IMG/VR virus record: IMGVR_UViG_3300032328_000119
Span: 1 to 34,648 of that record
Source: a virus
Taxonomy: Duplodnaviria > Caudoviricetes
Length of the DNA stretch: 34,648 nt
Reading direction: 5' to 3' (one strand)
Part shown: one piece after another, positions 23,206-27,575 of the stretch
How the letters are laid out: every line of letters begins with the position of its first letter
How positions within the stretch are numbered: position 1 is the first letter of the stretch
Program-made: the position numbers and the translations under genes
Notes under the pieces: generated by a model
Seen by the model: the letters and a program-made list of their open reading frames with translations, nothing else
Databases searched by the model: none
What the model was told of the DNA's origin: nothing

Positions 23206-23528
23206 TGTGTAGCCCTATCAATAGTACGATTAGTAGCTTCTTGACTGCGCCATATCTCTATTCTTGCTTGAGCTGCTATCAGTTGCCATTTTAACTTTTC
23301 CTCTACTTCTACAGCCTCTTTTAGCCCTTGTAAGAGTTCTACATAATCATCTGTAGCGTAGGCTTCCATCTCTTTAGCAGCGATACTAGGAGCTGTAGAT
23401 TCCAGCATGAGCTTACTTTTAGCAGATCGCAGATAGTTCTCTATATAAGTTCTATTTGCTTTGGCAGATGCAAAGACTCCTGATTGTTTGATGATAAATT
23501 CGACTGCTTTGTTCGGGTCAATTTCCAT
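23202..23528 (-). CDS. Conserved hypothetical helical protein
   Basis: 108 aa; AKANRTYIENYLRS...IEIWRSQEATNR. Confidence 0.65.
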   Translation of the reverse strand: MEIDPNKAVEFIIKQSGVFASAKANRTYIENYLRSAKSKLMLESTAPSIAAKEMEAYATDDYVELLQGLKEAVEVEEKLKWQLIAAQARIEIWRSQEATNRTIDRATQ

Positions 23529-23680
23529 TGTCTTTCCATTTCGTCTTTTAGTTTAAGTGTGGCTTCCCATCCACGCTTTTCTAATACTAAAGCTAACTGT
23601 TTTCGTCTAGTTGCTATAGGCCATGTTAGTAGCTCTCTGGCCTCACATTCATTGCGCCATTCCTCGCTGCTCGTATTCAT
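23441..23680 (-). CDS. Hypothetical protein
   Basis: SEEWRNECEARELL...KRG motif; GGGGA upstream. Confidence 0.6.
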   Translation of the reverse strand: MNTSSEEWRNECEARELLTWPIATRRKQLALVLEKRGWEATLKLKDEMERQWKLTRTKQSNLSSNNQESLHLPKQIELI

Positions 23681-24911
23681 TTATTCTTTCCCCAATCCAA
23701 CGCATTACCGGCACAGCCATAGAATTACCTAATGCTTTGTACCTTACACCACTTGGGCAGTTTTCTTTAATGTTAGTGTAATTGTCTGGGAAACCCTGTA
23801 ATCTTTCGCACTCTATTTCTGTAAGTCTGCGTACTGCCATATTTCCAATAATAGGAATATGACCACCACCAGCACCCATAGCATTAGTTAAGGTTGGGCT
23901 AATATTTTCTCCAATAGCAGCATTTGGATGTTGTCCACCTATACAGCCAACGCCAGCTCTCTGTCCTGTAGTTAATGTATTAGATTGATTTTCTAAAAAA
24001 TTCATTTCATCGGGTCTAGCGTTTGTATTAAAACCAAAAACATTTTGCACAAAAGGTATATTTCCACCACCTGACCCCCAGGTGCTTGTAACAGTTTGGC
24101 AAATATCACCCATTTCTTTAACTCTACTATCAGATGGATGATTTTCGTATGCAATCATAGTAAAACCATCTGCCCTTGAATAATCATTGCAAGTTGTTTC
24201 TAAGCAATTAGCAATTTTTGGTGTTGCTACCATTTTCATATAGCGTTCATTACAATCGTCTGAGCTTATTCCTTTGTAATCTCTTGCTGTGAGTGGGCCA
24301 CAGAGTTGAGTGCTGATTCCAGCATCGGTGGTAGTTTCTTTCCACGAGCTTCTGCCCTTCGCAATATTCCCTGACAGGCTTTCGGACTCAAATAATACTT
24401 TTGCGGAAGATTCCCAACCTCCAAGACATCCGACAACAAACACTCGTCTGCGCCTTTGTGCGACTCCGAAGTTTTGAGCATCAAGCACCCTGTAGGCCCA
24501 CCCATACCCGAGTTCAACCAACGCACCGAGGAAGCTGCCAAAATCTCGCCCCCCCCCAGAACTGAGGACACCTGGCACATTTTCCCATATGCACCACTTG
24601 GGTCTAAACTTGTCAAGAATTCCAACATAGGTGAGAGCAAGGTTGCCTCTTGGATCGTCAAGTCCTTTGCGTAAGCCTGCAACGCTAAATGATTGGCAGG
24701 GAGTTCCTCCGACCAAAAGTCCGATTGAGTCATCTAATTTCCATTCTTTATATTTAGTCATATCACCAAAATTGGTAACTTGTGGGTAGTGATGTGCAAG
24801 TACCTGGCTTGGAAATTTCTCAATTTCGCTAAATCCTACTGGTTTCCAGCCCATGTGATGCCATGCTACTGTTGCTGCCTCTATGCCAGAACAGACCGAT
24901 AAATAATTCAC
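23649..24911 (-). CDS. DNA (cytosine-5)-methyltransferase
   Basis: Motif I SVCSGIEA, IV GGTPCQSFSVAG, VI WENVPG, VIII QRRRRVF, IX RRLTEIECERLQGFPD, X YKALGNSMAV. Confidence 0.95.
   Translation of the reverse strand: MNYLSVCSGIEAATVAWHHMGWKPVGFSEIEKFPSQVLAHHYPQVTNFGDMTKYKEWKLDDSIGLLVGGTPCQSFSVAGLRKGLDDPRGNLALTYVGILDKFRPKWCIWENVPGVLSSGGGRDFGSFLGALVELGYGWAYRVLDAQNFGVAQRRRRVFVVGCLGGWESSAKVLFESESLSGNIAKGRSSWKETTTDAGISTQLCGPLTARDYKGISSDDCNERYMKMVATPKIANCLETTCNDYSRADGFTMIAYENHPSDSRVKEMGDICQTVTSTWGSGGGNIPFVQNVFGFNTNARPDEMNFLENQSNTLTTGQRAGVGCIGGQHPNAAIGENISPTLTNAMGAGGGHIPIIGNMAVRRLTEIECERLQGFPDNYTNIKENCPSGVRYKALGNSMAVPVMRWIGERINEYEQRGMAQ
24266..24733 (-). CDS. Nested +1-frame ORF within the methyltransferase, M.EcoHK31I beta-polypeptide-like
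   Basis: 155 codons open inside the MTase; RWLNSGM...LSDVLE...KYYLSPKACQGILRRAEARGKKLP; GGA about 7 nt upstream of ATG. Confidence 0.6.
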   Translation of the reverse strand: MTQSDFWSEELPANHLALQAYAKDLTIQEATLLSPMLEFLTSLDPSGAYGKMCQVSSVLGGGEILAASSVRWLNSGMGGPTGCLMLKTSESHKGADECLLSDVLEVGNLPQKYYLSPKACQGILRRAEARGKKLPPMLESALNSVAHSQQEITKE

Positions 24912-25300
24912 ACTTGCTCCTCAAGTTGTTTAATCTTCTGTGAGATTCTGGCTCTCCATTGCTGCCATCCTTCTCCAGCATAAGCCTGGACTCCTATCTC
25001 TTGAGCTTTTTTCATTGTGAGTTCTTCTGAGCTATACCAAGGCAACTCAGGTCGTTTATTTATCTTTGGTTCTTCTATTACAATCTCATCCTCAAACCTA
25101 TACTGGTTTAACCAAGTGGTTGCATGGCAGATATACTCCAGCTCTGTATTCTTTGACTTCCAGTATGCAATATGGTTTGGCAGAGCCTCTACTGCTTGCT
25201 CTCGCTCTACTGGCGTTAGCTTATAAAAGCTACGATGCGCCATACGCTTACTAACTTTCCTTGGATACAAACTCCAAAACTGCTCAAATAAATCTGACAT
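24908..25300 (-). CDS. Protein resembling the C-terminal domain of phage replication initiators
   Basis: FEQFWSLYPRKV...HATTWLNQYRFEDE; AAGGAG SD before ATG 25300. Confidence 0.6.
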   Translation of the reverse strand: MSDLFEQFWSLYPRKVSKRMAHRSFYKLTPVEREQAVEALPNHIAYWKSKNTELEYICHATTWLNQYRFEDEIVIEEPKINKRPELPWYSSEELTMKKAQEIGVQAYAGEGWQQWRARISQKIKQLEEQV

Positions 25301-25310
25301 TATTGCTCCT

Positions 25311-25550
25311 TCACGAGTAATAGACACCAACTACATAAAAAAAGACTGCTACAAATTCTACAATGAACAATGGTATATCTTCTTGGTATATACCAACTAA
25401 CGCCCAGATAGCACTACCGATTAAACCAAAATGAAGGTTGATTGGGTAGAAATTTAATGAGGTGAGAAATATCCCGATCAAACACAGGATTGTTCCGATC
25501 CATTTTGCGACCTTCAATCTGTTCCAGGCGTTGTCTTTCAGCAACTTCAT
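25311..25550 (-). CDS. Small membrane protein (about 3 TM)
   Basis: KWIGTILCLIGIFLTS...YPIN...; AAGGAG SD. Confidence 0.65.
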   Translation of the reverse strand: MKLLKDNAWNRLKVAKWIGTILCLIGIFLTSLNFYPINLHFGLIGSAIWALVGIYQEDIPLFIVEFVAVFFYVVGVYYS

Positions 25551-25894: not shown

Positions 25895-26227
25895 TTAGAC
25901 TCCTAGGGTTTTATTACTACGCATGGCTAAAAGTTCTTTATCTAAGCCTTGCTCTGGCTTGTAGGAAAGCAACTCTAGGGCATCGGATGTGCAGCATTTA
26001 CTACCTTTGTAGCAAGTGCCTGTAATGGCATCCATTATTAACCCTGTTTTATGCTCGTCTGTCCCAAAAAACACAGGCGTACAGATGATCTCGCCAAGGT
26101 TAGTAGTTCCCTTGTAGAGAACTCTATTCTTTAGCCAATCTAGCTTAAGGGATTTCTTTTGCCAAGTAGGAAAACAACTGCTGGCATCGGCACATAGACC
26201 AGTCATGGATTTTCTAATTTCTCTCAT
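25895..26227 (-). CDS. Hypothetical protein (probably leaderless mRNA)
   Basis: 110 aa; promoter -10 lies 7 nt before the ATG. Confidence 0.55.
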   Translation of the reverse strand: MREIRKSMTGLCADASSCFPTWQKKSLKLDWLKNRVLYKGTTNLGEIICTPVFFGTDEHKTGLIMDAITGTCYKGSKCCTSDALELLSYKPEQGLDKELLAMRSNKTLGV

Positions 26228-26234
26228 AACTTAG

Positions 26235-26264
26235 ATCTTAATCTACAAATCTACATTGATGCAA
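26235..26264 (-). promoter_or_regulatory. sigma70-like promoter with two TGTAGA boxes in the spacer
   Basis: Minus strand TTGCAT-18-TAAGAT; TCTACA at 26242-26247 and 26250-26255. Confidence 0.55.
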
Positions 26265-26423
26265 GTGTTTTATTTTTGTAGCATATACGCTACATTTTTT
26301 TATTAAAGTTTCATGCACTTTAACAATGAGAAAAGTTATGTAAAAAGCATAAACCTACATAAGATTCTTATAAATTTATACATATAAGTATTGATATATA
26401 TACCTATGTATTAGTCTTTAGGA

Positions 26424-26621
26424 AGGTTACTGCTCTTTCGGTGAACGAACCTAGCCTACCTAGATTCGCCTTCATCTGCTCCATCGGAGTTACAGAACCC
26501 GTCAGTCGTTCAAGGAATAGGCACTAACCTCGCCACCTATATTGTGCTGTTTCATCCTTTACCCCCAGTAGCACTATTTCTCCTAAGCCCCTGGTATGTC
26601 GTTAGAGCCTCGAACTTAGGA
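26424..26621 (-). ncRNA. Candidate structured non-coding RNA (five stems plus possible pseudoknots)
   Basis: GC-richer intergenic island with stems 26612-21/26581-90, 26570-74/26544-48, 26534-40/26517-23, 26475-96 and 26442-74; G-U pairs work on the minus strand; promoter directly upstream. Confidence 0.6.
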
Positions 26622-26627
26622 AATCGT

Positions 26628-26657
26628 ATCTTACATCACATTTCAAACTCTTTGCAA
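26628..26657 (-). promoter_or_regulatory. sigma70-like promoter for the candidate ncRNA
   Basis: Minus strand TTGCAA-18-TAAGAT; predicted start falls at the base of the first stem. Confidence 0.55.
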
Positions 26658-26953
26658 GCCCATCTGCCATTAGGCTGCTTAAACCATCCTAGAACTAGGA
26701 TCTTCCACCCAGACCGCACTAGCTCCGGCAAGAATTCAGACTCGGAGATTTTCTTAATCCTAGAGGACATATTGGATTTGCTAGTGATCTGGATGCCAAC
26801 TGTTTCCCCATTGCCAATGGCTAGGATGTCAAAAATATTGAATAAATCCTTTTTCCTTCTTGAGAAGTGATTGTAGGATTCCACTAGGTCGCACTTATAC
26901 CCCCTAGACTCCATTAGAGAGATTGTGCGAGCATTTTGGCTAACCGAGGTCAT
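26636..26953 (-). CDS. PD-(D/E)xK nuclease / Holliday-junction resolvase-like protein
   Basis: RKKDLFNIFDILAI...VGIQITS motif. Confidence 0.6.
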   Translation of the reverse strand: MTSVSQNARTISLMESRGYKCDLVESYNHFSRRKKDLFNIFDILAIGNGETVGIQITSKSNMSSRIKKISESEFLPELVRSGWKILVLGWFKQPNGRWACKEFEM

Positions 26954-27146
26954 TCTCTGTCAATCTTCCTTCTGATGCCTCTATGATCGCTGTATGCCAT
27001 TTCTTAGGGATGCCGTTCCGCATCTTCCAGGCATAGGCCGTTACATACTTAACACCGATCTTTTCGCATAGGATCTTGATAGTTCCAAATTCGGACATCA
27101 ATTTGTCAAATGAACTTGTTTGTGGCAAATTTACAACAGTATTCAT
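26940..27146 (-). CDS. Cro-like HTH regulator
   Basis: FGTIKILCEKIGVKYVTAYAWKMRNGIP...IIEASEGRL; AAGGAG SD; first gene of leftward early operon. Confidence 0.75.
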   Translation of the reverse strand: MNTVVNLPQTSSFDKLMSEFGTIKILCEKIGVKYVTAYAWKMRNGIPKKWHTAIIEASEGRLTENDLG

Positions 27147-27303
27147 ATATGCTCCTTTTGTAGACTTTTTATTCTACACCATCTAAAAACTGTGCAAAAA
27201 AGCAACACTTAATATTTATTTTTATAAAGGTGAAAAATCTCTACATTTGTGGTTTAAGATTTCTCTCAGCAGCACTTTTTAACACTCGTGAAGGAGTAGC
27301 AAA
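27147..27303. promoter_or_regulatory. Divergent early control region with TGTAGA-N8-TCTACA operator-like palindrome
   Basis: Inverted repeat at 27159-27178 overlapping a minus-strand TAGAAT -10; another TCTACA at 27240-27245 before a plus-strand TAAGAT (27255-27260). Confidence 0.6.
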
Positions 27304-27399
27304 ATGAAAGACTTTATTTTAGGTGGCATATTAGGATTTGTAATTGTAGCTTTTGTAATTACTGTGTATGGCTTTCGTATCGGTGTATATACATTATGA
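27304..27399 (+). CDS. 31-aa membrane peptide
   Basis: Below cutoff: MKDFILGGILGFVIVAFVITVYGFRIGVYTL; strong AAGGAG SD. Confidence 0.65.
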   Translation: MKDFILGGILGFVIVAFVITVYGFRIGVYTL

Positions 27400-27575
27400 G
27401 AGCCTTAATCCTGATCCTAGCGATCTCATTAGTAGGCTGTGCGCCTATCCCCATCAAACGCTATAAAACCGATGTAGTAGACCAAACGCCTTGCTATAAG
27501 ACTAATGATTGTCCTATGCAAAATCCCCCAGCGTTCTTGTTCTACAACAACTTTAACAATTCGTGGAGAAGATAA
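27396..27575 (+). CDS. Small lipoprotein, 59 aa
   Basis: Below cutoff: MRALILILAISLVG-C lipobox, then APIPIKRYK...NSWRR; ATGA-coupled. Confidence 0.65.
   Translation: MRALILILAISLVGCAPIPIKRYKTDVVDQTPCYKTNDCPMQNPPAFLFYNNFNNSWRR

What the first reader, a model, noticed from the sequence alone, without database searches (positions are those of the whole stretch)
26424..26657. Promoter-driven ~200-nt multi-stem, possibly multi-pseudoknot non-coding element in the slot where replication genes should be
Seen in sequence: a GC-richer island in the largest intergenic gap. On the minus strand it begins right after TTGCAA-18-TAAGAT. It folds into P1 UCCUAAGUUC/GGGCUUAGGA (10 bp), P2 GUGCU/AGCAC, P3 AUAGGUG/UGCCUAU, P4 UCUG-CUCC-GAU-GGAG-CAGA and P5 UGAA-CGAAUCUAG/CUAGGUUCG-UUCA. 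Each of the first three loops has a distal complement: GCUCU (26604-08) with AGAGC (26432-36), AAGGA (26555-59) with UCCUU (26512-16), and AGGUUA (26525-30) with UAACCU (26424-29). The G-U wobbles only work on the minus strand, which argues for RNA. I do not recognise it as tRNA, tmRNA, RNase P or a known ribozyme. Inference: a phage ncRNA. It lies downstream of cro, where lambdoid phages carry O/P and ori, and it contains a G-run (CUGGGGGUAAAGG) and precedes an AT-rich tract. It could be a ColE1-RNAII-like primer for an initiator-poor origin, or an antitermination/regulatory RNA.
Basis: partly seen in the sequence, partly recalled or inferred. Interest (0 to 1): 0.85.

Follow-up and report, generated by a model that had tools for sequence, protein, structure and literature searches.

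The report
Knotted phage RNA replacing origin-binding protein
This phage carries a catalogued but unexplained knotted RNA motif, about 70 bases longer than its database entry, in the spot where related phages keep the DNA-binding half of their replication-starter protein, so it likely marks and opens the site where copying of the phage genome begins.

Summary
The element is real, but its core is catalogued: 26497-26621(-) is Rfam RF02932 Betaproteobacteria-1 (90.3 bits, cut-off 49.4). Conservation runs on to about 26430 (~192 nt). P1-P5 and three pseudoknots covary in 47 relatives (93.6% paired, 0/500 shuffles). The uncatalogued tail has two 12-nt direct repeats that change in step (0/20000 permutations, repeated on 44 unseen classes). 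Context points to replication. In 58 complete cro-to-initiator slots found through a neutral gene, all 47 with a C-half-only initiator carry this element or one of four unrelated ones; none of 11 with a full DUF1376 initiator does. In distant phages it sits beside helicase/primase genes, including cultured phage AP1. One clear exception has both. Near-identical initiator halves accompany different repeats, so these are not its iterons. Best reading (0.55): an RNA-based origin, ColE1-like in logic but not in sequence. No discrete transcript or origin activity is shown. Earlier notes of this scan reached the same idea on other genomes; they are not independent support.

The parts
26652..26657 (-). 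-35-like hexamer
   Evidence: sequence; below the scan threshold
26628..26633 (-). -10-like hexamer, 6 nt before P1; predicted start of the RNA
   Evidence: sequence; similar hexamer in 23 of 47 relatives by eye
26430..26621 (-). whole conserved element, about 192 nt, predicted RNA
26497..26621 (-). Rfam RF02932 Betaproteobacteria-1 match (5' knotted core)
   Evidence: 90.3 bits, gathering 49.4, E 1.1e-15, model 1-120 of 120
26581..26621 (-). P1 (26621-12 with 26590-81)
   Evidence: 10 of 10 pairs with double changes
26566..26593 (-). PK1 (26593-91 with 26568-66), loop 1 to loop 2; not in the Rfam structure line
   Evidence: 97.2% paired, 2 of 3 pairs with double changes
26544..26574 (-). P2 (26574-70 with 26548-44)
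   Evidence: 92.7% paired, 3 of 5
26512..26559 (-).
   Evidence: 98.7% paired, 5 of 5
26517..26540 (-). P3 (26540-35 with 26522-17) around the near-invariant GGUGGCGAAG
   Evidence: 98.9% paired, 4 of 6
26501..26528 (-). PK3 (26528-23 with 26506-01), Rfam's third stem
   Evidence: 100% paired, 2 of 6; strongest covarying pair
26475..26496 (-). P4 outer stem enclosing repeat 1
   Evidence: 85.9% paired, 4 of 4
26476..26487 (-). direct repeat 1
   Evidence: identity covaries with repeat 2
26442..26474 (-). P5 long hairpin with a two-base bulge
   Evidence: 88-98% paired, 4 of 13
26430..26441 (-). direct repeat 2, 46 nt after repeat 1, at the 3' edge of conservation
26230..26429 (.). AT-rich, poorly conserved tract; candidate unwinding region
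   Evidence: 78% AT in the first 100 nt; mean 72% in relatives
26940..27146 (-). cro-like gene
   Evidence: weak YdaS/CI HTH Pfam hits, E 0.002-0.007, under the curated cut-offs
26636..26953 (-). 105-aa ORF whose end holds the promoter-like site; no family found
24908..25330 (-). replication initiator reduced to its C-terminal half (probable start near 25300)
   Evidence: phrog_270 positions 175-285 of 383, E 2.5e-18; Rep_Org_C E 3e-5, under cut-off; no DUF1376 found in the genome (the same search rang in 8 of 9 control records)

Best explanation
The element is a ~192-nt member of Rfam RF02932 with three covarying pseudoknots, and it likely works as an RNA-based replication origin that stands in for the missing DNA-binding half of the phage initiator. 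Shown: the fold, the in-step direct repeats, the truncated initiator, the either/or pattern with full initiators, and the placement beside replication genes. Inferred: the RNA is made from the promoter in front of P1 and folds as it is made. Repeat 1 would then pair with the template DNA strand under repeat 2, which has the same sequence, and anchor a lasting RNA-DNA hybrid at the edge of the AT-rich tract, much as the rG and dC stretches do in ColE1. The displaced strand would let the C-half initiator or a phage helicase/primase load the fork. Whether the RNA 3' end also primes is open.
For: (1) Neutral-anchor set, complete slots, 58 distinct initiator genes: 47 of 47 short initiators carry this element (26) or one of four unrelated ones (8, 7, 5, 1), and 0 of 11 full DUF1376 initiators do. 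Without requiring cro: 73 of 75 short with >=2.5 kb upstream, against 0 of 19 full. No locus holds two types. (2) The full form needs 9 changes on the tree of a neighbouring gene, 6 of them forced by strong branches, and one identical neighbour protein occurs with both forms. (3) Whole records: DUF1376 in 1 of 39 element-positive records, the C-half in 36 of 39, and RF02932 in 0 of 23 full-initiator records, only 3 of them near-complete. (4) A second, unrelated C-half-only initiator follows the element in L405 (phrog_678 positions 217-296 of 346). (5) Of 39 further loci with >=3 kb on both sides (some on contigs seen earlier), 35 lie beside an initiator C-half-type domain, an SF2 helicase and/or Toprim primase, a Prim-Pol or a primase-helicase. 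One is followed by RNase H and 3 have none. In cultured phage AP1 the element fills the gap after the primase gene. (6) Repeats match their own partner better than other elements' partners: 8.74 against 7.02 in 25 classes, and 8.19 against 6.85 in 44 unseen classes, 0 of 20000 permutations each. (7) Initiator halves are 99% identical between different element types and between different repeat sequences, and repeat 2 has no cognate complement in the 5' core (5.02 against 5.00). That leaves a nucleic-acid partner outside the core. (8) Full initiator genes carry clustered short repeats in their linker, as lambda O does (seen, no control). Precedent: PMC4412123 and PMC5043065 (passages).
Against: G031 carries the element on the leftward arm together with a full DUF1376 initiator and a helicase-loader-like gene, and L362 may be a second such case. 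Two short-initiator loci (L313, L329) and cultured RHph_Y25 show none of the five element types nearby. Exclusion could partly reflect two cassettes competing for one slot. Types B-E were defined from these same gaps. The repeats differ in their middle 2-3 bases, which is odd for a hybrid. No discrete transcript is shown: RNA libraries gave only low-depth contigs. No hit in plasmids. The GC-skew minimum near 27000 coincides with the switch in gene direction.
Confidence: 0.55

Rival explanations
1. It is an origin part but acts as folded single-stranded DNA, such as a primosome-assembly or lagging-strand initiation site, with no RNA needed.
For: Fits the same replication context. Covariation cannot tell RNA from single-stranded DNA, as PMC5737381 notes for its plasmid motifs (passage).
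Against: 277 G-U cells against 42 A-C; three short pseudoknots; a -10-like hexamer at a fixed distance in 23 of 47 relatives.
Confidence: 0.15
2. It is a cis-regulatory leader or switch (antitermination or attenuation) for the early operon, with the 5' strand of P4 pairing alternately with repeat 1 or repeat 2.
For: It often lies at the head of the operon. Repeat 1 overlaps the 3' strand of P4, so repeat 2 could swap in. It occurs on the leftward arm beside a full initiator in G031. Its tail shares a GGCUAG motif with the ~100-nt leader of 10 of 16 full initiators.
Against: It lies after the primase gene in 9 of 39 distant loci and in AP1, and the gene that follows is highly variable. Repeat identity also holds at positions predicted unpaired (260 of 311, against 233 of 258 paired). 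This reading does not explain the loss of the origin-binding domain.
Confidence: 0.15
3. It is a trans-acting RNA, a ribozyme or a selfish passenger spread by neighbouring HNH nucleases, and it is only tolerated in this slot.
For: Compact triple-pseudoknot core with invariant loop bases; an HNH-like gene ends at P1 in 3 of 47 relatives; Rfam types it as sRNA.
Against: The near-perfect link with truncated initiators, shared with four unrelated elements; most copies have no nuclease gene next to them.
Confidence: 0.1
4. The two repeats are DNA binding sites (iterons) for the short initiator or another phage protein.
For: Two spaced direct repeats with a variable middle, next to an AT-rich tract, look like protein sites.
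Against: 99%-identical initiator halves go with different repeats and with other element types, and one tail class goes with initiators only 27% alike. The repeats persist in phages that have no such protein.
Confidence: 0.05

Closest known systems
Rfam RF02932 Betaproteobacteria-1 RNA (its attribution to the 224-motif survey PMC5737381 is recalled; the main text does not name it and the supplement could not be read)
   Same: The 5' 125 nt match the whole model above the curated cut-off; P1, P2 and the third stem agree.
   Different: The model stops at 26497. It shows no P3, PK1, PK2, P4, P5 or repeats in its structure line. I found no function in print.
ColE1 RNA II primer origin (PMC5043065, PMC4412123, passages)
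   Same: Predicted logic: a promoter-driven structured RNA, no origin-binding initiator, and a stretch of the RNA able to pair with downstream template DNA.
   Different: No sequence likeness or Rfam RNAI hit; about 192 nt against 550 nt; pseudoknotted; the anchor would be a variable 12-nt repeat, not a G/C run; it lies in phages that keep half an initiator or their own helicase/primase.
Marine RNA-based (MRB) plasmid origins (PMC3035462, abstract) and the ARRPOF, PAGEV and GEBRO motifs (PMC5737381, passage)
   Same: Rep-less replicons tied to structured non-coding elements of a few hundred bases.
   Different: Those are plasmids. None of those Rfam families matched here, and no antisense RNA I was shown for this element.
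Lambda-type O/P origin (PMC5043065, passage)
   Same: Same genomic slot after cro; relatives use a full initiator there (for example PfAn1).
   Different: Here the origin-binding N-half and its linker repeats are absent.
T4 R-loop origins oriF/oriG (PMC4412123, passage)
   Same: Phage origins described as R-loop-mediated and driven by a promoter.
   Different: No conserved pseudoknotted RNA fold is described there in what I read.

Membership tests
Rfam RF02932 Betaproteobacteria-1 | covariance-model score above the gathering cut-off over the full model | tested here: met
   90.3 against 49.4 bits, positions 1-120 of 120
Rfam RF02932 Betaproteobacteria-1 | consensus stems conserved with compensatory changes | tested here: met
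   P1, P2 and PK3
ColE1-type RNA-primed origin | no replicon-encoded origin-binding initiator | tested here: met
   only a C-half in this genome; DUF1376 in 1 of 39 element-positive records; other N-domain families were not searched genome-wide
ColE1-type RNA-primed origin | primer RNA made from an upstream promoter | tested here: inconclusive
   hexamer in 23 of 47 relatives; only low-depth contigs in RNA libraries
ColE1-type RNA-primed origin | conserved rG stretch pairing with a dC stretch of the template | tested here: not met
   the G-run shrinks to GGG and partly forms PK1; in-step repeats are the predicted analogue
ColE1-type RNA-primed origin | RNase H cleavage and Pol I extension at a fixed point | not testable with these tools
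   one distant locus has RNase H as the next gene (L395)
ColE1-type RNA-primed origin | sequence homology to RNA I / RNA II | tested here: not met
   no such Rfam match up to E 10; no plasmid match
ColE1/MRB-type origins | antisense regulator RNA overlapping the 5' end | not tested
   the promoter scan listed no plus-strand site inside the element, but no direct test was run
Lambda-type iteron origin | repeats read by the phage's own initiator, so that the two co-vary | tested here: not met
   99%-identical initiator halves with different repeats
Known ribozymes, tRNA, tmRNA, RNase P | match to the family model | tested here: not met
   no match at gathering score in the window or at E <= 10 in 26000-27400; catalysis itself untested

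The most novel reading that the evidence does not exclude
Small tailed phages use an interchangeable set of at least five unrelated RNA origins (this one plus four, of which three gave no Rfam match where scanned) in place of the origin-binding protein domain. This RNA is a self-targeting guide: a freely changeable repeat in its tail invades the matching DNA of its own gene, opens the duplex and hands it to a half-initiator or a helicase.
Probability: 0.35. Interest if true: 0.9.

Novelty: new variant of a known kind. Interest (0 to 1): 0.72.

Why it matters
RNA-based initiation without a Rep protein is described for only two plasmid families (PMC3035462, abstract). If this reading holds, an orphan Rfam family gets a job, and RNA-for-protein swapping of origin recognition becomes a common phage strategy. 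The pattern scans estimate about 160 and 330 viral stretches and about 700 metagenome stretches. The repeat pair gives a sharp test by compensatory mutation, and the motif is present in a cultured phage. A 200-nt origin with a changeable address could also be a compact replicon tool.

Tried and rejected
Single-strand folding gave no signal on either strand (z 0.03 and -0.18). The G-run argument was dropped. Repeats as iterons of the short initiator were rejected. Pairing of repeat 2 with the 5' core was rejected. The window sequence found nothing in the phage or plasmid collections; a GC-rich relative found AP1 and one more phage, and no plasmid. The scan of cellular genomes gave 4 hits: three passed the Rfam cut-off (one read, L344, is a phage-like stretch in a binned genome) and one did not and lies inside a coding region; no host could be assigned. 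A predicted structure of the short initiator (pLDDT 88) had no clear match: Foldseek E > 1, best Z 5.8. Laying RNA-library contigs showed family members at depth 3-11, some running into flanks, so neither ends nor strand can be read; X1 and X2 gave an identical contig and may be one data set. GC skew is confounded by gene direction. The cro tree and the one-clade test did not finish. No covarying repeat was established for types B and C; type D shows only two alleles. No full-length covariance model was built. Literature: searches found no paper on this RNA's function; the survey's supplement was unreadable and may describe gene context.

Full report
Setting. The window is a 34,648-nt virus record rated complete, with terminase, portal and major head genes, Sak, an exonuclease, SSB and a methylase. 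The ORF list shows no polymerase, primase or helicase that I could recognise; 26 ORFs were scanned against PHROGs. The finding lies on the minus strand after a cro-like gene and a 105-aa ORF.

Identity. Positions 26497-26621 match Rfam RF02932 Betaproteobacteria-1 over the whole model (90.3 bits, cut-off 49.4). Nothing else credible matches up to E 10. I found no paper on its function. The survey I recall as its source does not name it in the main text, and its supplement could not be read.

Structure. Single-sequence folding is unremarkable (z 0.03). Relatives came from a protein anchor (62 loci) and a pattern scan (120 stretches). Conservation runs to about 26430. On 47 sequences under 90% identity, chosen from 214, a 54-pair model is 93.6% paired. 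It has 35 pairs and 407 cells with double changes; shuffles give 78.1%, 24.5 and 127.9, with 0 of 500 as high, and slid controls reach at most 45.8%. The model was partly read from the same sequences, so the slid control leans in its favour. The other two proposed pairings do not (49.1% against 49.0%) and are replaced by PK1 and PK3. One 17-nt strand (26528-26512) pairs in turn with three partners, which makes a tight knot. G-U cells outnumber A-C cells 277 to 42, which favours the minus strand. A -10-like hexamer precedes P1 in 23 of 47 relatives; 15 follow a hairpin module ending in a T-run, 3 follow an HNH-like gene and 6 are unclear (by eye).

The tail repeats. Columns 46 nt apart covary by identity rather than by complement. 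They mark two 12-nt direct repeats, 26487-76 and 26441-30. In 25 classes (from 90 distinct tails; 12 of 231 loci could not be parsed) each repeat matches its own partner better than others: 8.74 against 7.02, 0 of 20000 permutations. In 44 unseen classes (181 of 199 new loci parsed) the figures are 8.19 against 6.85, again 0 of 20000. The match extends to positions predicted unpaired (260 of 311, against 233 of 258 paired; both inflated by best-match selection), and repeat 2 has no cognate complement in the core. Initiator halves 99% alike occur with different repeats and with different element types, so the short initiator is unlikely to read them.

Context. ORF 24908-25330 matches only the C-terminal part of a replication initiator. 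Some relatives found through the same 105-aa ORF have a full DUF1376 initiator right behind it instead of the element. I then anchored on a downstream gene unrelated to the element (80 loci) and on the C-half (80 matches). In the neutral set, 58 distinct initiator genes had a complete cro-to-initiator slot. All 47 short ones carry this element (26) or one of four unrelated 150-290-nt elements (8, 7, 5, 1), and none of 11 full ones does. Pooling both anchors without requiring cro gives 73 of 75 short (>=2.5 kb upstream) against 0 of 19 full. No locus holds two types. Types B, C and D, and the locus holding type E's second copy (L239), gave no Rfam match in the slot where scanned. The full form is scattered over the neighbour gene's tree (9 changes, 6 forced; quick tree with few columns), so the cassettes have been exchanged repeatedly. 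In whole records, DUF1376 was found in 1 of 39 element-positive records and in 8 of 9 controls, and RF02932 in 0 of 23 full-initiator records, most of them fragments.

Distant phages. Two relaxed scans gave 199 distinct element loci, none with a DUF1376-profile hit in the flanks held. Of 39 with >=3 kb on both sides, 19 have the C-half-type domain, 12 an SF2 helicase and/or Toprim primase, 2 a Prim-Pol with helicase, 2 a primase-helicase, 1 RNase H as the next gene and 3 nothing recognised. L405 has a different initiator, again as a C-half only. Cultured Acidovorax phage AP1 has the element, with matching repeats, in the 293-nt gap after its primase gene. Cultured PfAn1 shows the C-half fused to a DUF1376-like N-part (read by eye) ahead of a gene annotated as replication protein P, with no element.

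Results against. G031 has the element on the leftward arm and a full initiator with a loader-like gene on the other arm; L362 may be alike. L313, L329 and RHph_Y25 have short initiators and none of the five types. Two cassettes sharing one slot would also exclude each other. RNA libraries hold family members only as short, low-depth contigs. The fold of the short initiator gave no clear match.

Mechanism. In ColE1 a promoter-driven RNA forms a lasting hybrid that needs an rG stretch to pair with a dC stretch of the template. The hybrid either primes after RNase H cleavage or exposes the other strand for helicase loading (PMC4412123 and PMC5043065, passages). By inference, an RNA stretch that pairs with downstream template must repeat the sequence found there, which is what the tail shows. 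I therefore commit to an RNA-based origin anchored by repeat 1 on the template under repeat 2 (0.55 for the origin role; the anchoring step is less sure). Rivals are a single-stranded DNA origin part (0.15), a regulatory leader or switch (0.15), a trans-acting or selfish RNA (0.10) and protein-read iterons (0.05).

Earlier notes. I recorded the initiator-replacement reading before seeing the scan's notes. Seven notes on other genomes state it for this family and one for another element; one more describes the tail. The picture of the RNA gripping its own DNA through the repeats follows the wording of note e1-10069182; the repeat statistics and the protein and intramolecular controls are my own. 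These notes are not independent evidence.

Verdict. A real, catalogued RNA motif, longer and more knotted than catalogued, with a well-supported but untested role at the replication origin: a new variant of a known kind, interest 0.72.

Noticed in passing
L046:2450-2680, L203, L271, L288, L292 and others (36 loci): Type B: a ~225-nt conserved element in the same slot, with visible stem covariation; no Rfam match where scanned. Also in GenBank MW202674.
   Followed up: partly
L047, L198, L225, L243, L302 and others (14 loci): Type C: a ~190-nt conserved multi-hairpin element in the same slot; no Rfam match where scanned.
   Followed up: partly
L222, L228, L275, L276 and others (10 loci): Type D: a ~290-nt element whose 3' end also has two direct repeats around a long hairpin, changing in step between two alleles.
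   Followed up: partly
L030 and L239, slot after cro: Type E: a pyrimidine-rich stretch ending in two G7 runs 2-3 bases apart, recalling the mitochondrial CSB II motif (recalled, not tested).
   Followed up: no
L051:2320-2455, L053, L116, L225, L228, L247, L057: An optional ~130-nt hairpin module ending in a T-run sits directly before elements A to E and before one full initiator. It resembles C4/CI-type regulators from memory but has no Rfam match.
   Followed up: no
L194:3864-3966, L062, L058, L187, L253: A ~100-nt leader before 10 of 16 full initiators shares a GGCUAG motif with the tail of element A (127 of 130) and with types B (17 of 34) and C (10 of 11); background 0.05 per 130 nt.
   Followed up: partly
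L005:2315-2707, L017, L103, L113, L129, L138, L391: HNH-like nuclease genes are inserted right before P1, some with the stop codon inside P1; they might spread the element.
   Followed up: no
L395:5409-5840: An RNase H gene directly follows the element, after cI and cro; a Tad2-like anti-defence gene lies further on.
   Followed up: no
L345 (G031:15000-28000) and L362: The element lies on the leftward recombination arm of phages that keep an initiator on the other arm; a possible second origin.
   Followed up: partly
L329:4620-4900 and L586:4357-4781: Other GC-rich non-coding stretches beside short initiators, matching none of types A-E; possible further classes.
   Followed up: no
window 26277-26294: A plus-strand terminator-like hairpin in the AT-rich tract, facing the element; no more than chance in number (1 found, 1.3 expected).
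   Followed up: no
window 23441-23680: A 79-aa DUF7696 protein; a 70-aa gene of a different family follows the short initiator in many relatives. Either might be the helicase-loader partner.
   Followed up: no
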